Assembly: GCA_964506075.1 (NCBI GenBank)
Contig: CAZDKO010000001.1
Span: 25,637 to 89,636, forward strand
Source: an uncultured bacterium
GTDB lineage: Bacteria; CAZDME01; JAYEMH01
Length of the DNA stretch: 64,000 bases
Direction: 5' to 3'
Part shown: in pieces, positions 941 through 21,045 of the stretch
How positions within the stretch are numbered: position 1 is the first letter of the stretch
How the letters are laid out: each line of letters opens with the position of its first letter
Program-made: the position numbers and the translations under genes
The notes under the pieces: generated by a model
What the model was told of the DNA's origin: nothing
Seen by the model: the letters and a program-made list of their open reading frames with translations, nothing else
The model's database searches: none

Positions 941-3900
941 ATGATTAAAACGAGATTTAAAAATCAGGGCGGGGTCATAATCATTATGGCCCTGGTGGTT
1001 CTGGTTATTGCCTCGGTGCTGGCGGTAACCTTTGCTACCAGTATGCGCCTGGAGGAAAAAACGGCCGCTACTTTTAGAAAACACGGAAAAGTTTTTTATA
1101 TCGCCCAGGCGGGGTATGAATACGCCCTGGCTATTTTGCGAAAAGATAAAAATGAAGAATCAAGCCGTCCCTACGACGCTTTGAACGAGGAATGGCGGAC
1201 GTTATTTAACGGCAGCGGCGAAGAGGAAGAACCGGCGGTCAATCTGGACGGTATCAATTCCAACGGTATAAACAGCGATGGAAAAGATGCCCGCTGGATT
1301 TATTTACACCGTGACCCGGAAGATGATGAATCTCCGTTAATCGGCCGTTTTGCCGTTTTAATCGTAGATGAAGCCAGTAAACTGAGTCTCCACGCTTCCG
1401 GTAGCGGCCAGCAAAACCAGGGCTGGACGCCTTTTGAAAACGATTTAACCAATTTAAAAAATCCTAATACCGGCGCCAGTTTGTTTGATTCTTCCACGGC
1501 GCCAAATTTAATCAATTACCGCCAGGGTGATAAAACCGGCGGCGGGGTAAACACCAAATACCCGGGTGATAGCGGTGATGACGATAGTGATAACACCCCT
1601 CTGGAAAATGACGGTATTGATAATGACGGCGACGGCGTAATTGATGAGGCTTTTGAAGGAACGAACGAGCCGGATGAATACGTCTCCCGGATTCCCTACG
1701 GTACCGGTGATGAGCTTGATTTTGCCCTGAAGCTGGTTGATGAGTTAAGAATGGTGAGTGGCATCGGGGAAACGACGACGCGGATGTGTAAGAATTTTAC
1801 CACCGTTGATGCCGGGGCTCAAACGCGATACTGGGATAGCGCCACCTCCAGCTGGGAGAGTCAGGAAAATATTAACGCCCTGACTTCAGTTGATACTCTA
1901 TTTAACCTGATGACCGGGGCCGGGATTAGCAGTGAAAATGCGGCCCGCTGGACGGCGAACACAATTGACTATGGCGACCGGGACGGTGTCCCGACGGTAA
2001 TAGAGACCGGCGGCAAAAAATATCTCGGTGTCGAAGGACTCCAGATAAATGAGGTGATGAGCTGGGTTAATCATCGGGGGGATACTTATAAGGGTCCGAT
2101 AATCCTGGATAATTTTGTCGACACCCCGACCAACTGGAATGACCCGAGCAGTTTTAGTAATAATGGCAACTGGAATAATGCTCTTTGGACGGCTCAAGGA
2201 AACGTTGACGGAGGAGAAGATACTTGGACCTGGCCCTGGGATAACGGCACCTACGACATTTATATTTATAGAGATTCAAGTTTAAACGGCCGGGATTTTC
2301 ATTATAAATTTGAAGACGGTATCAGTCCGGGCGTGGACTTGGAAGGCGACACAGATTTTTATCTGAGTGACCGGTATCTGGTTCCCGGGGTTAAAATTTC
2401 TAACGGAGAAATAAGACTAACTTTAAGGGCCAGTGTCGGGGGGGAAACCTTTAGCTGGTTCCAGTGTCTAAGTTTAAATCCCACTAATCCTAATGATCCC
2501 AATACGGGAACAAGGAGAAATAGCTTTGCCGACCCTCCTCCTGTTGGTCCGGTGCAGGACCCACCGCCGGGAGATCCCTGGGATGACAGCACATGGGCGG
2601 CCAAAGGCTGGCAAACCGGAGGAAAAAGTACCTGGGTTTGGACTGTTTCTAACGGCACTTATGATGTTTATTTATATCAGAATATAGGTTGGCCGGGCAC
2701 CAATGACTATGATTATAGGTTTGAAGAAGGTGAAGCCGGAGATATTTCGGGGACGGCTACTTTCGGCTCCAGCGGCACTAATATTTATTATCACGTCGGT
2801 AACGTGACCGTCAGCGGTGGTCAGCTTACCTTGAAACTGACGGCTTGTTACACCTGGACGAGGAGCCGCTTTGAACAAATCGGTGTTGAAGGAGCTGAAT
2901 ACGTAGAATTGGTTAACCTTTCCTCCAGTCCCATCACCATTGATAAAAGTTGGGGGATAAATGTCGGCGGGAATATTATTCTGGATAATAACACGGCTAA
3001 GATTGATTCTTCCAGCCCCGGTACCACCTATAAATTCACCTGGTTTGAAGGAGACGCGGCTACTTTCACCATTCCCGGCTCAACGGCGCCAAATTACAGT
3101 TATTTTATTGCCGCCGACAGCCGCTACGCGATGGATTACCGCCACGCCTGGGCCGATGCTTATAAAGACGGCGTCTGGGGGTCGCCGGGGAATTTGGGTA
3201 ATGAACCGGGAGATTTAGGGGTAATCGGCGATTTAGAAATATCCAACACCGGGGGAGTAAATATTTCTCTGGTTAGAGAAGTAAACGGAGAAGAAATCGT
3301 GGTTGATTTTGTCCCCTGCACCACCACTGCTTCCGGATTCGGGACTTCGGCCTGGGATACGGTCGCACCCCAGGAAGATAAAAGTGTGGAAAGGAACAGC
3401 GCTTATAAAGACGATAGCTCCTGGGCTTTAACTACCGAAGGCTGGGGACGGGGAACACCCGGGGCTGCCAATACCGGTGGTGCCTCGGTTGCCGTCGCGG
3501 TTAAGAACCGGCCCTTTGCCTCGCCGGGATTTATGACCGAGGTTTATAAAGGTACGGGGGATTACTCCACCAATAAATTGATCACTTCGGATATCAAAGA
3601 TTTCGTGAGCGTTCTCACTACCGCTTATTACCGCCTGGAAGTGGAAAATACCACTTCACCTCCGGGCTGGTCAACCGATACGGGGATGGACGGTACCCCC
3701 CGTTATCTTTCGCCTACGGCCGGCAGTAACGCCACTTTAAGCTGGACCGGCCTTCATATCCCGGACGGGACTTATAATCTTTTTGTAGCCGGCGGCATCG
3801 GCGGAAAGTTCCAGTGTCCTTCGGGCACGGCCCGAGTAATGCGGCCCGACGGCATAGTTTATGCCGGTACCGCTGCCGTCAGTAGCGGGAGTTTAACCGT

Positions 3901-18247: not shown

Positions 18248-19321
18248 ATGAAAAATCAAAAGCTATCTCCCGCTAAAATAATCGCTTTAACGGTAATTAT
18301 TCTGGTTTTAATTTTATATTTCTCGCGACTCTTTTTAGAACCGAAGGTGATTAAAAAAAGCCGGGTTCTAATGGGAACAATAGTTAATATCATTATATTT
18401 GATAGAGATTTAAAAAAAGGAGAGGTAGCTTCTGAACTGGCCTTCCAGGAAATGAAACGGGTAGAGCGGATGCTCTCTATAAAAGATGAATATAGTGAAC
18501 TTTCAAGATTAAACCAGAATGAAGATTTAAAGTTTCACCGGGTAAATCCGGAGATTATTTTTTTACTGAAAGAAAGCCGGAGAATCTCGCGTTTAAGTAA
18601 AGGGAAATTCAGTATTTGCGTCGGGCCGCTGGTTAATTTATGGGAAGAAAAACTGGGCGAGGGGCAGATCCCTACGGAAAAAGAAATAAAAAAAATTTTA
18701 CCCCTGGTAGATTATAGGAACATAGAGATAAATGAACGGAACAATATGGTCAGGTTCAGGAAAAAAGGAGTAAAGATTAACCTGGCCGCTATTGCCAAAG
18801 GTTATGCCGTTGACCAGGCGGCAAAAACACTGAGGAAAAGCGGTATTAAAAATTATCTGGTGGAAGCCGGAGGGGATTTATTTGCCTCGGGTAAAGGAAG
18901 TAATGGAAAAGACTGGCTGATTGGTGTAAAAAATCCCAGAGCAGCAAATATTCTTTTTGAATTTAGATGTACGGATAAAGGCGTAGCCACTTCAGGAGAT
19001 TACGAACGTTTTAAAATAGTAAATGAAAAACGTTATCACCATTTGTTTGATCCATGGTCTGGTTTTCCGGCGGAAAAAGTTATCAGCGTGACGATTATCG
19101 CTCCCAGTGCCATGACGGCTGACGCTTTAGCTACGGCGGTTTTTATTTCAGGAGAAAAAGACGGCCTGAAATTAATTGAAAAAACTAAAGGTGTCCACGG
19201 TATGATTATTGCGGAAAAAGACGAAAAAATAAAAATTTCCATGTCCAAAGGTTTCAAAAAATATTTTAAAATTAAAACCCGCCAAAAATTTTTTAAAAAT
19301 GTTATTTTTTCCCGTCGGTGA
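18248..19321 (+). CDS. apbE: FAD:protein FMN transferase (ApbE family)
   Basis: LAAIAKGYAVDQAAKTLRKSGIKNYLVEAGGDLFASG and ..ATSGDYERF.. are typical of ApbE. An N-terminal TM/signal anchor is present. Confidence 0.7.
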   Translation: MKNQKLSPAKIIALTVIILVLILYFSRLFLEPKVIKKSRVLMGTIVNIIIFDRDLKKGEVASELAFQEMKRVERMLSIKDEYSELSRLNQNEDLKFHRVNPEIIFLLKESRRISRLSKGKFSICVGPLVNLWEEKLGEGQIPTEKEIKKILPLVDYRNIEINERNNMVRFRKKGVKINLAAIAKGYAVDQAAKTLRKSGIKNYLVEAGGDLFASGKGSNGKDWLIGVKNPRAANILFEFRCTDKGVATSGDYERFKIVNEKRYHHLFDPWSGFPAEKVISVTIIAPSAMTADALATAVFISGEKDGLKLIEKTKGVHGMIIAEKDEKIKISMSKGFKKYFKIKTRQKFFKNVIFSRR

Positions 19322-19384
19322 TTAAAACAGCCGTTAATTTAAAATAAAAAAACAAAAAAATTTTCCAAAAATCACATTTTCTTC

Positions 19385-19414
19385 TTGACAAGGAAACTTG
19401 TTTCGTTATATATT
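19385..19414 (+). promoter_or_regulatory. Sigma70-like promoter upstream of the tiny Lys-rich ORF
   Basis: TTGACA (19385-19390), a 16-18-nt spacer, and TATATA/TATATT around 19407-19414. An aggagg RBS follows at 19440-19445. Confidence 0.3.
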
Positions 19415-19452
19415 TAATTAAGATGTTGTTTAATAACGAAGGAGGGGATAAA

Positions 19453-19503
19453 ATGGCGAAGAAAAAGAAAGCGAAAAAAGCCGCAAAGAAAAAGAAAAAA
19501 TAA
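19453..19503 (+). CDS. 16-codon Lys-rich micro-ORF (MAKKKKAKKAAKKKKK)
   Basis: Strong RBS ggaggg 7 nt upstream of ATG. The coding sequence is made of A-rich Lys codons. A promoter-like sequence lies upstream and an intrinsic terminator 38 nt downstream. Not in the supplied ORF track (too short). Confidence 0.25.
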   Translation: MAKKKKAKKAAKKKKK

Positions 19504-19540
19504 ATTTTAAATTTTAGATTGTTAGTTCTAAATGGTTAAA

Positions 19541-19567
19541 AGCAGGAGCGTAAGCTCCTGCTTTTGC
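19541..19567 (+). terminator. Rho-independent terminator after the micro-ORF
   Basis: agcaggagc-gtaa-gctcctgct forms a 9-bp perfect stem with a tetraloop, followed by tttgct. Confidence 0.55.
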
Positions 19568-19602
19568 TATGATGTCGCATCTTGCGGTAAAAGGGGGATT
19601 AA

Positions 19603-19740
19603 ATGTATAATAAGAAATTTTTGATTTTCGCAATTATTTTATTTTTTCTGGCTGGAATTAATTACGGGTGTTCAAAAAAAGAGAAAGGGCAGGAAGAAGA
19701 AAAAACAACTTATGATTTCGTCATCTGGGGAGAGAAGTAA
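19603..19740 (+). CDS. 45-aa small secreted or lipoprotein-like peptide (candidate)
   Basis: RBS aaggggga upstream of ATG. MYNKKFLIFAIILFFLAGINYGCSKKEKGQEEEKTTYDFVIWGEK has one hydrophobic helix then a Cys, followed by a charged tail. Confidence 0.25.
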   Translation: MYNKKFLIFAIILFFLAGINYGCSKKEKGQEEEKTTYDFVIWGEK

Positions 19741-19805
19741 CCCCAAGTTATTAATAAAAGATATTTAAGCTATATCAATTTGCATAACTTGTAAGTGAGG
19801 ATACA

Positions 19806-19889
19806 ATGCCAAAACCGAGAAGAAAAGGGAAATTGCGCTGGCGTTCTAAAAAAGCCAATAAGAGGCGCAGTCCAACCCGGGGCCGGTAG
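19806..19889 (+). CDS. 27-aa highly basic peptide (candidate small protein)
   Basis: RBS gtgagg 5 nt upstream. MPKPRRKGKLRWRSKKANKRRSPTRGR has 13 basic residues out of 27. Confidence 0.2.
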   Translation: MPKPRRKGKLRWRSKKANKRRSPTRGR

Positions 19890-20052
19890 TTTTAGAGTGC
19901 TAACGGGAAAGACTGATTCCTGATAAAAATTTTGTTGACAATATAGCGCATTTGAGGATATATTATTATATATAATATATAGGACTCATTCCCATATTAT
20001 ATGTGGATACATGCTTATATAGTATGTACCGGTTAATATAGGAGGAGAAAAG

Positions 20053-20319
20053 ATGATCAGGAACAGGGAAGAGGAAAAAGTACCGGTTACTGCTCCGCTT
20101 AAGATTTTAGAATATCGGACTTTAAGTAAAGGTTTTGGCTGGTGGTCAGCGGTTGTTTTACTTGAATCATGGGGAAGAAAACAACTTTGTTTTTATCTCT
20201 GGCAAAAAAAAGGTAATAAATGGGCCAGGAAACAAAAGTTCACCATCCAGAATCAGGAGCAATGGGAATATTTATCTGATTGCGTGGAAGAGTTAATTCC
20301 CAAACTCAGTGCTGAATAA
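20053..20319 (+). CDS. Hypothetical protein (88 aa)
   Basis: Strong RBS ataggaggag 6 nt upstream. No recognisable family. Confidence 0.4.
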   Translation: MIRNREEEKVPVTAPLKILEYRTLSKGFGWWSAVVLLESWGRKQLCFYLWQKKGNKWARKQKFTIQNQEQWEYLSDCVEELIPKLSAE

Positions 20320-20430
20320 AAAAATTTAAAAAAATTAAATTTAATACTTGACATAAAGAGCAATATTTTGTATAAATATACAAACCTAAATTTTTAGGGG
20401 GTGAAAAGAAAACCCATAGGAGGTAGATGG

Positions 20431-20856
20431 TTGAAAAGTCTGGGGAGACATGTGTTGCTGGAACTTTTTGACTGTGACGGTAAAATACTTAATAGTGAGA
20501 GTAAGGTGAGAGTTATTCTCCGGCGGTCGGCTGAAATTGCCAAGGCGAACATTGTCGGAGATTTTTTTCATCAATTCAATCCTTACGGAATAAGCGGGAT
20601 AATAGTCATATCTGAATCTCATTTCTCAATTCACACCTGGCCGGAGTATAATTACGCGGCCGTTGATTTATTCAGCTGTGACGACTCATTAAAGATAAAA
20701 AGCGCTATTGATTATATCAAAGAAAGTTTTAAAGCGCAGAAGACCACAATTTTAGAATTAAAAAGGGGCGTATTGAATTTGCCCCCTGACAAAATAGAGT
20801 ATAAACCTAAGTTTATTACGCAGCCTTACCGTTTGGAAGAAGTTAAGATACTCTGA
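20431..20856 (+). CDS. speH: S-adenosylmethionine decarboxylase proenzyme (pyruvoyl-dependent, SpeH type)
   Basis: HVLLELFDCD..NP.GISGIIVISESHFSIHTWPEYNYAAVDLFSC contains the ES|H self-cleavage site and IHTWPE. The likely start is TTG 20431, preceded by aggagg at 20417-20422. The track ORF starts at GTG 20401. Confidence 0.8.
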   Translation: MKSLGRHVLLELFDCDGKILNSESKVRVILRRSAEIAKANIVGDFFHQFNPYGISGIIVISESHFSIHTWPEYNYAAVDLFSCDDSLKIKSAIDYIKESFKAQKTTILELKRGVLNLPPDKIEYKPKFITQPYRLEEVKIL

Positions 20857-20926: not shown

Positions 20927-20954
20927 TTGACTCCAATTTTTTTTGGCGTATAAT
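20927..20954 (+). promoter_or_regulatory. Near-consensus sigma70 promoter for tRNA-Val
   Basis: TTGACT (20927-20932), a 16-nt spacer, and TATAAT (20949-20954). The tRNA starts 15 nt downstream. Confidence 0.5.
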
Positions 20955-20968
20955 ATATTTGTTATTAT

Positions 20969-21045
20969 GGACGATTAGCTCAGCTGGATAGAGCACTGTC
21001 TTCACACGGCAGGGGTCGCTGGTTCGAGCCCAGCATCGTCCACCA
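20969..21045 (+). tRNA. tRNA-Val (anticodon CAC), CCA encoded
   Basis: Cloverleaf folded by hand. Acceptor GGACGAT/ATCGTCC; D arm GCTC-AGCTGGATA-GAGC; anticodon stem CTGTC/GGCAG with loop TTCACAC (CAC at positions 34-36); T arm GCTGG-TTCGAGC-CCAGC; discriminator A plus CCA. Confidence 0.85.

What the first reader, a model, noticed from the sequence alone, without database searches (positions are those of the whole stretch)
19385..19889. A roughly 730-bp gap between apbE and speH holds three tiny ORFs, including a self-contained promoter-RBS-MAKKKKAKKAAKKKKK-terminator unit
There are three small ORFs:
- 19453-19503 encodes a 16-residue peptide that is 75% Lys. It has a strong SD (ggaggg), sits between a sigma70-like promoter (TTGACA..TATATA) and a perfect 9-bp-stem terminator, and is made almost entirely of A-runs. 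Poly-A-tract ORFs are known to cause ribosome sliding or stalling, so it could be a regulatory or sensor ORF or a very small basic protein.
- 19603-19740 has its own SD and encodes a 45-aa peptide with a signal-like helix.
- 19806-19889 has its own SD and encodes a 27-aa peptide with 13 basic residues.
Basis: seen in the sequence. Interest (0 to 1): 0.55.

Follow-up and report, generated by a model that had tools for sequence, protein, structure and literature searches.

The report
Three-gene micro-operon of tiny basic peptides
The gap holds a small operon in an uncultivated Omnitrophota bacterium: a 16-codon lysine/alanine gene of unknown function, a clade-specific membrane peptide, and an unannotated 27-residue peptide that is conserved across the phylum and looks like ribosomal protein bL37.

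Summary
All three reading frames are conserved in syntenic relatives whose ApbE is only 55-63% identical.

- **ORF3 (19806-19889)** is the firmest result. It is a 26-41 aa basic peptide found in at least 111 species genomes, mostly Omnitrophota with some Planctomycetota. It is under strong purifying selection and almost never annotated. Family members give sub-threshold hits to the NCBIfam bL37 models and to no other family (best E 4.8e-5; hhalign 81%). I read it as a divergent bL37-like ribosomal peptide.
- **ORF1 (poly-Lys/Ala, 15-18 codons)** occurs only in the window's small clade. It has an 11/12 sigma-70 promoter, an invariant extended SD, strict triplet structure, no Arg at all, and AAG-enriched Lys codons that keep A-runs to 6-8 nt. 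No antiterminator competes with the hairpin. No separate promoter precedes the downstream ORFs, so the hairpin probably acts as a leaky internal terminator.
- **ORF2** is a clade-specific single-helix peptide without a canonical lipobox. Some lineages have lost it.

The poly-K function is unresolved. I favour a translated polycationic product over a cis-acting leader.

The parts
19385..19414 (+). Sigma-70-type promoter: TTGACA (19385-19390), 18-nt spacer, TATATT (19409-19414). An A/T-rich tract lies upstream.
   Evidence: 11/12 match. (one of only 4 such sites in 64 kb). The -35 hexamer is invariant and the -10 nearly so (T25-A26-T27-A28 and T30 invariant) in all 8 orthologous loci.
19439..19447 (+). 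Extended Shine-Dalgarno AAGGAGGGG, 5 nt before the ATG of ORF1.
   Evidence: Read directly from the sequence. GGAGGGGAT[A/G]AAATGGCGAAGAA is invariant in all 12 clade loci and absent from the 79 other loci.
19453..19503 (+). ORF1, the poly-Lys/Ala micro-ORF: MAKKKKAKKAAKKKKK, 16 codons plus stop.
   Evidence: Orthologues are 15-18 codons made only of AAR and GCR/GCC. Length differences are in whole codons. There are 85 Lys and 0 Arg codons. A-runs are capped at 6-8 nt.
19504..19537 (+). Spacer of about 38 nt (19504-19541) between the ORF1 stop and the core stem, which starts at 19542. It contains the conserved AUUUUAG..UUCU motif, which can pair with the 3' end of ORF1.
   Evidence: Alignment A6. 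Folds. This spacer carries an insertion in the window relative to the other loci.
19538..19566 (+). Hairpin: core stem GCAGGAGC (19542-19549), loop GUAA, GCUCCUGC (19554-19561), flanked by AAAA and UUUU. Read as an intrinsic-terminator-like internal attenuator.
   Evidence: The stem is conserved in 8 loci with G-U wobble changes in L003, and the loop varies. It forms under every ribosome-masking condition tested. The simple scan did not call it a terminator.
19603..19740 (+). ORF2: a 45-aa peptide with one hydrophobic helix, a conserved Cys and a conserved C-terminal F[VI]IWGE. Its SD is AAGGGGGA at 19591-19598.
   Evidence: Present in the window, L004/5/8/88 and L090. A remnant survives in L006. 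Absent from L002, L003 and L089. Only 2 members exist in the 5.8-billion-protein database.
19806..19889 (+). ORF3: the 27-aa basic peptide MPKPRRKGKLRWRSKKANKRRSPTRGR, bL37-like. Its SD is GAGGA at 19797-19801.
   Evidence: at least 111 species. (29 species encode an identical peptide). (pN/pS 0.15). (link to bL37). (65 representative clusters).
19935..19964 (+). Next promoter (TTGACA-18-TATATT), serving orf88 and speH. It marks the downstream boundary of the micro-operon.

Best explanation
The apbE-orf88 gap carries one small transcription unit that encodes three micro-proteins.

A near-consensus sigma-70 promoter drives a maximally initiating 16-codon ORF, which produces a Lys/Ala-only oligocation (mature form about AKKKKAKKAAKKKKK). 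A conserved GC-rich hairpin with a short U-tail follows about 38 nt later. It most likely acts as a leaky internal terminator: most transcripts end after ORF1, and a fraction read through into ORF2 (a clade-specific single-helix membrane or secreted peptide) and ORF3.

ORF3 is a divergent member of a peptide family conserved across Omnitrophota and related PVC bacteria and related to ribosomal protein bL37. By inference, it is a small rRNA-binding component of the 50S subunit.

I infer that the poly-K peptide is itself the functional product. It would be a non-sequence-specific counter-ion for nucleic acid or another polyanion, comparable to the Lys/Ala tails of bacterial histone-H1-like proteins, and co-expressed with the ribosomal peptide.

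Shown here: conservation, coding signatures, the anatomy of the unit, and the bL37 relationship at sub-threshold significance. Inferred: transcription through the hairpin, ribosome binding by ORF3, and the polycation role of ORF1.
For: **Synteny and frame conservation**
- MgtE-ApbE-gap-orf88-AdoMetDC synteny is kept in relatives with 55-63% ApbE identity. ORF1 is kept in all of them and ORF3 in all but L091, whose contig ends first.

**ORF1**
- Promoter, SD, start and hairpin are nearly invariant, while the ORF varies by whole codons (15, 16, 18).
- Every codon is AAR or GCN, and all GC dinucleotides are in frame. There is no Arg among 85 Lys codons.
- AAG is 53% of Lys codons against 22% genome-wide. 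The maximum A-run is 6-8 nt against 11-15 expected (P 0.007-0.037 per locus).
- The promoter is one of only 4 sites with an 11/12 match in 64 kb.

**Operon structure**
- The first ORF after the hairpin starts 16-74 nt downstream, and no usable promoter-like site (at least 9/12) lies between them in any locus.
- In L090 the ORF2 stop overlaps the ORF3 GTG start.
- The hairpin forms in all masked folds.

**ORF3**
- At least 111 species genomes carry it.
- 29 species encode an identical 26-mer at only 76-86% nucleotide identity. pN/pS is 0.15 with pS at 0.74.
- 65 representative clusters were found among 1.84 billion proteins.
- Natural family members hit only the NCBIfam bL37 models out of 18,950 families (best E 4.8e-5, 23.5 bits, full length).
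- hhalign of the family against actinobacterial bL37 gives 81% probability, P 1.2e-5.
- The composition-controlled shuffle test gives p = 0.003 for bL37, against 0.33 for THX and none for bS22.
Against: - There are no expression, ribosome-profiling or proteomic data.
- ORF1 is known from only about 7 distinct genomes of one clade, is low-complexity, and has no detectable homologues.
- The exclusive use of Lys would also fit a codon-sensing leader.
- The layout promoter, short ORF, hairpin, genes is that of an attenuator.
- No family member reaches the curated bL37 cut-offs (30 and 40 bits).
- The window's own peptide gives no hit to any model and is the most divergent in the hallmark motif (ANKRRSP against ANHGKRP).
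- The family profile does not retrieve PDB bL37 chains under HMMER's default filters.
- The gene is never next to ribosomal protein genes.
- Read-through of the hairpin is inferred only from the absence of other recognisable promoters.
Confidence: 0.5

Rival explanations
1. ORF1 is a cis-acting leader ORF. Its translation (Lys-codon or tRNA-Lys dependent, or slowed by the polybasic nascent chain), or the binding of excess basic peptide to the leader RNA, sets how much transcription passes the hairpin into ORF2 and ORF3. This would be an attenuator for a ribosomal-peptide operon, comparable in logic to the amino-acid leader peptides or to L4-mediated attenuation in the E. coli S10 leader. The peptide itself would be a by-product.
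For: - The architecture is promoter, strong SD, short ORF made of one repeated codon type, about 38 nt (34-38 nt in the orthologues) of conserved spacer, a hairpin with a U-tract, then genes with no promoter of their own.
- The peptide sequence and length drift while codon type, start region, stop region and hairpin are conserved.
- Lys is never replaced by Arg.
- The 3' end of the ORF can pair with the conserved UUUUAGUUCUUUGG just after the stop.
Against: - No structure mutually exclusive with the terminator hairpin is predicted in any of the 8 orthologues, whether the leader is free, masked at the stop codon, or masked mid-ORF. RNAalifold finds none either.
- The ORF ends too far upstream for a terminating ribosome to reach the hairpin.
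- The downstream genes have no link to lysine metabolism.
- Avoidance of A-runs points to selection for faithful full-length translation.
- ORF2 sits between the leader and ORF3 in some lineages.
Confidence: 0.27
2. The 19421-19566 unit is a non-coding small RNA of about 145 nt with a polypurine tract and a terminator. The ORF would be incidental.
For: - It is a compact promoter-to-terminator unit.
- Nucleotide conservation of the 5' and 3' parts exceeds that of neighbouring protein genes.
- The ORF is almost free of pyrimidines: Ala codons are GCA or GCG although the genome prefers GCC and GCT.
Against: - The invariant extended SD sits at ideal spacing from an invariant ATG.
- There is strict triplet structure. 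All 24 GCN triplets are in frame, length differences among orthologues are whole-codon (15, 16 or 18 codons), and all seven distinct ORF sequences end at the aligned stop position.
- No Rfam family matches at gathering score. The only sub-threshold hits are L20_leader at 27 bits against a cut-off of 58.7, and similar.
- Little covariation is seen outside the terminator.
Confidence: 0.08
3. ORF3 is a conserved basic peptide unrelated to bL37, for example a different RNA- or DNA-binding or regulatory micro-protein linked to the CsgG-like lipoprotein and ZIP transporter genes that flank it in most Omnitrophota. The bL37 resemblance would be convergence in a short basic sequence.
For: - No member passes the curated bL37 thresholds.
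- PDB searches with the family profile miss bL37.
- The similarity is concentrated in about 12 residues.
- The conserved context is CsgG-like lipoprotein, peptide, ZIP transporter.
- The conserved Trp and the KGKL motif have no counterpart in actinobacterial bL37.
Against: - bL37 models are the only hits among 18,950 NCBIfam and 24,736 Pfam families.
- The alignments to the Myco model are full length (positions 1-23 of 24).
- Non-basic residues align in order: S, A, N, H, G, P, N.
- Shuffle tests that preserve composition give p = 0.003.
- NCBI already recognises a planctomycete bL37 family, so the protein exists in the PVC group.
Confidence: 0.3

Closest known systems
Ribosomal protein bL37 (Mycobacterium and Cutibacterium; PDB 5o60 chain 3, 7kgb chain v, 8crx chain V; NCBIfam NF047428 ribo_Myco_bL37 and NF047429 ribo_Plancto_bL37)
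   Same: - Size of 24-32 aa, extreme basicity and a free-standing tiny gene.
- A shared core S-K-(K)-A-N-H/K-G-[KR]-[KR]-P-(N).
- Sub-threshold but specific HMM hits (E 4.8e-5), hhalign 81%, and shuffle p = 0.003.
   Different: - It falls below both curated cut-offs.
- It has an extra residue before the A-N pair.
- It has a conserved KGKL-x-W-R block that actinobacterial bL37 lacks.
- The window's clade has ANK[KR]R[GS]P in place of ANHGKRP.
- Ribosome binding has not been tested.
- According to PMC10618245, bL37 had been seen only in mycobacterial ribosomes.
Amino-acid leader-peptide attenuators (trpL, hisL and pheL type) and protein-mediated leader termination (E. coli S10 leader with L4). 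Both are cited from general knowledge.
   Same: A promoter-proximal short ORF dominated by one codon type, then a spacer of about 34-38 nt, then a hairpin with a U-tract, then the structural genes with no promoter of their own.
   Different: - No antiterminator or alternative fold was found.
- The regulated genes are not lysine-related.
- No Lys-rich leader peptide of this kind was found in the literature searches.
Bacterial histone-H1-like Lys/Ala-rich proteins (Chlamydia Hc1 and Hc2, AlgP, PhaF C-terminal region)
   Same: - A Lys plus Ala low-complexity composition with little Arg.
- Composition and charge are conserved rather than sequence.
- Length varies by repeat gain and loss that preserves the reading frame (Hc2: PMC2848022).
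- Chlamydiae are generally grouped with Planctomycetes in the PVC superphylum (general knowledge, not tested here).
   Different: - Those proteins are about 100-240 aa, with structured or dimerisation domains or ordered pentamer repeats. ORF1 is only 15-18 aa and about 70-85% Lys.
- No sequence homology can be tested because of the low complexity.
- Binding to DNA, RNA or polyphosphate has not been tested.
Poly(A)-tract / poly-lysine ribosome sliding and stalling (for example PMC9207662)
   Same: The ORF encodes consecutive lysines, and a polybasic nascent chain is expected to slow elongation.
   Different: AAG codons interrupt the A-runs, so the maximum is 6-8 nt. This is significantly shorter than synonymous expectation. 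The sequence looks selected against slippage, not for it.

Membership tests
Ribosomal protein bL37 | Scores above the curated NCBIfam cut-off (NF047428: 30 bits; NF047429: 40 bits) | tested here: not met
   The window peptide and the Omnitrophota consensus give no hit. The best natural family member reaches 23.5 bits, E 4.8e-5. Others are in the E 1e-4 to 4 range.
Ribosomal protein bL37 | Hallmark C-terminal core ..SK-ANHGKRPN | tested here: inconclusive
   The family consensus is RSKKANHGRKP or ANKGRKPN. The window has RSKKANKRRSP: the A, N and P are kept, while H becomes K and G becomes R. hhalign gives 81% probability, P 1.2e-5 over 12 columns. The shuffle test gives p = 0.003.
Ribosomal protein bL37 | A peptide of about 24-32 aa, strongly basic, encoded by a free-standing micro-gene | tested here: met
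   27 aa with 14 basic residues. The family ranges from 26 to 41 aa.
Ribosomal protein bL37 | Bound in the 50S subunit near the peptidyl-transferase centre, in the H39-H42 / H89 / 5S pocket | not testable with these tools
   The location is taken from PMC10618245. No ribosome structure from a carrier organism is in the PDB.
Ribosomal protein bTHX / bS22 / eL41 | Sequence similarity to the family | tested here: not met
   No Pfam Thx hit or NCBIfam THX or bS22 hit. Shuffle p = 0.09-0.33 for THX, and nothing for bS22 or eL41.
Leader-peptide transcription attenuator | A short translated ORF enriched in the sensed codon, upstream of an intrinsic terminator and of genes with no promoter of their own | tested here: met
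   10-14 Lys codons out of 15-18. The core hairpin stem starts 34-38 nt after the stop. No usable promoter precedes ORF2 or ORF3.
Leader-peptide transcription attenuator | An antiterminator structure mutually exclusive with the terminator, selected by ribosome position | tested here: not met
   The terminator hairpin is the MFE element in all 8 orthologues under all ribosome masks. The consensus fold shows no competitor.
Leader-peptide transcription attenuator | Regulated genes belong to the metabolism of the sensed amino acid | tested here: not met
   Downstream lie ORF2, ORF3, orf88 (unknown function) and AdoMet decarboxylase.
Poly(A)-tract ribosome-sliding element | A long uninterrupted A-run. 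About 11 or more A's are needed, a figure from general knowledge. | tested here: not met
   The maximum A-run is 6-8 nt in 7 orthologues, against 11-15 expected at genomic codon usage.
Bacterial histone-H1-like Lys/Ala proteins | A Lys/Ala-rich low-complexity DNA-binding region | tested here: inconclusive
   The composition criterion is met (K plus A is all residues after the Met). Length and domain architecture are not met (15-18 aa against more than 100). Binding cannot be tested.
Bacterial lipoprotein (ORF2) | Lipobox [LVI][ASTVI][GAS]C at the end of the signal peptide | tested here: not met
   The residues before the conserved Cys are NYG, NFS and NLR in the three orthologues. The only model hits were weak and driven by the signal peptide.
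Known RNA families (Rfam 15) | A covariance-model hit at gathering score in 19250-20450 | tested here: not met
   Only a tRNA at 20969-21042 passes in the window. The best hit in the region is L20_leader at 27 bits against 58.7.

The most novel reading that the evidence does not exclude
ORF1 may be one of the smallest autonomous protein genes: 15-18 codons with its own consensus promoter, perfect SD and terminator. Its product would be a genetically encoded oligolysine that acts as a bulk polycation for rRNA, DNA or polyphosphate in these little-studied Omnitrophota. It would be co-expressed with a previously unrecognised bL37-type ribosomal peptide that is universal in the phylum. Alternatively, both peptides could be new ribosome components.
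Probability: 0.3. Interest if true: 0.75.

Novelty: new variant of a known kind. Interest (0 to 1): 0.55.

Why it matters
**ORF3.** Gene callers miss this peptide almost completely. Only 28 called copies exist among 5.8 billion proteins, all labelled hypothetical, yet it is identical at the amino-acid level in dozens of species. If it is bL37, the protein extends from Actinobacteria (and NCBI's planctomycete model) to a whole candidate phylum. That bears on how the pocket near the peptidyl-transferase centre is filled in different bacteria, and on ribosomal protein inventories used in phylogenomics and MAG quality checks.

**ORF1.** It is a clean, testable case of a conserved homopolymer-like micro-gene. 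It could show whether bacteria encode oligolysine as a functional polycation, or whether they use a Lys-only leader in a new form of attenuation without an antiterminator.

Tried and rejected
- **Rfam.** Scans at gathering score and at permissive E-value found nothing relevant.
- **Pfam and NCBIfam on the window's small ORFs.** No hits.
- **PDB sequence searches.** Searches with the clade profile, the consensus peptide and the broad family profile did not retrieve bL37. The only hit was mL102 at E 0.2.
- **THX, bS22 and eL41 resemblance.** Rejected by shuffle tests.
- **Classical attenuation.** Folds with ribosome masks and RNAalifold show no antiterminator.
- **Poly-A slippage.** Rejected by codon and run-length analysis.
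- **ORF2 as a remnant of the CsgG-like lipoprotein** that precedes the peptide gene elsewhere. No significant similarity.
- **Canonical lipobox in ORF2.** Absent.
- **Searches for more loci.**
  - The first genome-contig scan, with ApbE alone, found no relatives.
  - The metagenome-contig scan with orf88 returned only the contig already held.
  - The viral-contig scan for the poly-K start region returned nothing.
  - ORF2 has no relatives beyond the clade.
- **Poly-K-like ORFs near the peptide gene in 79 other loci.** None found.
- **Literature searches** for Lys-rich leader peptides or poly-Lys micro-genes, and for bL37 in Planctomycetes or Omnitrophota. Nothing relevant.
Full report
**Observation**

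The sequence is as described.
- The promoter TTGACA-18-TATATT lies at 19385-19414 and matches 11 of 12 positions.
- An extended SD, AAGGAGGGG, lies at 19439-19447.
- ORF1 (19453-19503) encodes MAKKKKAKKAAKKKKK.
- A perfect 9-bp hairpin occupies 19541-19562 and is followed by four U.
- ORF2 occupies 19603-19740 (45 aa) and ORF3 occupies 19806-19889 (27 aa).

- The peptide is 69% Lys, not 75%.
- ORF3 has 14 basic residues, not 13.
- The 731-bp gap ends at an 88-aa ORF (20053-20319), not at speH. AdoMet decarboxylase (Pfam PF02675) starts at about 20401.
- The consensus terminator scan did not call the hairpin, because its U-tail is short.

Only four sites in the 64-kb window match the sigma-70 consensus at 11/12 or better. 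Two of them are the ORF1 promoter and a site just upstream of the tRNA.

**Relatives**

ApbE homologues at 55-63% identity led to contigs that keep the order MgtE, ApbE, gap, orf88, AdoMetDC.

ORF1 is present in all eight distinct loci, with an almost invariant promoter, SD, start region and hairpin. ORF3 is present in seven of them; in L091 it was not found before the contig ends.
- The ORF1 variants are MAKKKKAAKKKAKKKK, MAKKKAKKKAKKKAKKKK, MAKKKKKAKKKKKKK and MAKKKKAKKKAAKKKKKK.
- ORF3 reads M[PTS]K[PAG][KR]RKGKLRWRSK[KR]ANK[KR]R[GS]PTRG[KR].

ORF2 is present in three lineages (window, L004 group, L090).
- It has a conserved Cys and a conserved C-terminal F[VI]IWGE.
- In L090 its stop overlaps the GTG start of ORF3.
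- L006 keeps a remnant.
- L002, L003 and L089 lack it.
- It has no relatives outside the clade and no canonical lipobox.

**ORF3**

A back-translated scan of one genome per species found at least 111 species carrying it. Nearly all are labelled Candidatus Omnitrophota, with some labelled Planctomycetia or Phycisphaerae.
- The consensus is MGKRKRRGKLNWRSKKANKGRKP[NC]LG.
- 29 species encode an identical peptide although their DNA is only 76-86% identical.
- pN/pS is 0.15 with pS at 0.74.

It is therefore a translated gene under strong purifying selection.

It is practically unannotated. Only 28 called proteins exist among 5.8 billion, all labelled hypothetical. An exhaustive HMMER search of 1.84 billion representatives found 65 clusters. 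Many of these carry ANHG[RK]KP and a C-terminal extension of 5-15 residues.

Elsewhere in the phylum the gene sits between a CsgG-like lipoprotein gene and a ZIP transporter gene, not among ribosomal protein genes.

*Relationship to bL37*
- I recalled the M. smegmatis bL37 sequence and confirmed it against the PDB: 5o60 chain 3, MAKRGRKKRDRKHSKANHGKRPNA. The C. acnes sequence is MGKTGRKRRARRKKGANHGKRPNA.
- NCBIfam holds two bL37 models, one mycobacterial and one planctomycete.
- The window's peptide and the Omnitrophota consensus hit nothing.
- Natural members of the same family hit only these two models out of 18,950. The best is MGKRQRRGKLRWRSKKANHGRKPNLG at E 4.8e-5 and 23.5 bits, aligned full length. 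P0168 hits the planctomycete model at E 1.5e-4.
- hhalign of the family against three solved bL37 sequences gives 81% probability, P 1.2e-5.
- Composition-preserving shuffles give p = 0.003 for bL37, 0.09-0.33 for THX, and nothing for bS22 or eL41.
- No member passes the curated cut-offs.

I file ORF3 as bL37-like: probably a third, divergent subfamily. It is not a demonstrated member. The Borrelia ribosome paper states that bL37 had been seen only in mycobacterial ribosomes (PMC10618245).

**ORF1**

ORF1 is restricted to the window's clade. None of the 79 other loci has anything like it within 3 kb, and viral contigs have none.

*Coding signatures are strong.*
- Every codon is AAR or GCN.
- All 24 GCN triplets are in frame.
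- Length differences are whole-codon.
- The start and stop regions are fixed.

*Lys is never replaced by Arg.* There are 85 Lys codons and no Arg codon, although ORF3 in the same genomes mixes K and R freely.

*Codon choice differs from the rest of the genome.*
- Lys codons are 53% AAG, against 22% in the window's long ORFs.
- As a result the longest A-run is 6-8 nt, against 11-15 expected (P 0.007-0.037 per locus, although the loci are not independent).
- Ala codons are GCA or GCG, whereas the genome prefers GCC and GCT.

This contradicts the idea that the A-tracts are there to make ribosomes slide.

**Mechanism**

Folding each orthologous leader gave the terminator hairpin every time. This held for the free leader, for a ribosome at the stop codon, and for a ribosome stalled mid-ORF. 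No competing antiterminator appeared. Classical attenuation is therefore not supported.

In every locus the next ORF begins 16-74 nt after the hairpin. Only one sigma-70-like site at 9/12 or better lies between the ORF1 stop and the ORF3 start in any locus. That one is in the window, and its -10 element overlaps the ORF3 ATG, so it cannot serve ORF3.

The simplest model is a single operon with four properties:
- it is driven by the ORF1 promoter;
- the hairpin, with its short U-tail, is a leaky internal terminator;
- ORF1 is expressed most strongly;
- ORF2 and ORF3 are expressed by read-through.

Whether ORF1 matters as a product or as a cis-acting leader cannot be decided in silico.
- A product would be a Lys/Ala polycation. 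Its closest compositional analogues are the H1-like tails of Hc1, Hc2 and AlgP, which also vary by in-frame repeat changes (PMC2848022).
- I favour the product reading at about 0.45. The reasons are selection for faithful full-length translation, the absence of any alternative fold, and the absence of a lysine-related regulon.
- I put the leader reading at about 0.27.
- The two readings are not mutually exclusive.

**Verdict**

- The well-supported novelty is an unannotated, phylum-wide bL37-like peptide.
- The poly-K micro-gene is a conserved curiosity confined to one clade, with no described counterpart and an open mechanism.

Noticed in passing
window 20053-20319 (+), with its leader 19935-20052: orf88 has no Pfam or NCBIfam hit, yet it is 85-88% identical across the clade where ApbE is only 55-63%. 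It lies just upstream of speH, behind an 11/12 sigma-70 promoter. Its 5' UTR has TATATA(A/C)C boxes flanking an insert of variable length (64 to 121 nt from the promoter -35 to the ATG, depending on the locus). This could be an operator or a structured leader for the polyamine gene pair.
   Followed up: partly
PDB 6z1p chain AQ (Tetrahymena mitoribosomal protein mL102), residues 68-79: This is the only PDB hit of the broad ORF3-family profile. Its sequence KKANHGARPCSS (E 0.2) carries the same ANHG..P core as bL37. It hints that the motif may also occur in a mitoribosomal protein.
   Followed up: no
L028, L069 and proteins P0130-P0148: Phycisphaerae and Planctomycetota members of the ORF3 family are 41 aa long. 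They have a conserved C-terminal extension KGRVKGW..KNYPHLY and an N-terminus MARPG[TND]N[HY]. They do not hit NCBI's planctomycete bL37 model.
   Followed up: partly
L009-L087 (about 3001-3081 in each): In most Omnitrophota the peptide gene directly follows a CsgG-like lipoprotein gene and precedes a ZIP zinc-transporter gene. Many variants end in ..KPC[LMQC]G, with one or two Cys. A link to zinc was not examined.
   Followed up: partly
window 19468-19569 (-) and 19534-19650 (+): There are sub-threshold Rfam hits to the L20 ribosomal-protein leader (27.2 and 20.5 bits, gathering score 58.7). They overlap the hairpin and are probably a chance effect of it, but they are worth noting next to a ribosomal-type peptide gene.
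   Followed up: no
protein P0156 (527 aa): This Sel1-like repeat protein matched the ORF3-family profile seven times through its repeat INWYSKAANQG. It is a false positive and shows how short the informative motif is.
   Followed up: no
L006 2933-3034 and L089 around 3664-3729: In lineages that lack ORF2, a remnant of its mature part (CSKKEITREFIIQGE in L006) sits directly after the hairpin. This indicates that the signal-helix part was deleted, not that ORF2 was never there.
   Followed up: partly
window 20927-21042 (+): A tRNA gene (Rfam 60.7 bits) sits just after speH. An 11/12 sigma-70 site (TTGACT-16-TATAAT) lies upstream of it, on the opposite strand to the long TPR/PMT-like genes that follow.
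   Followed up: no
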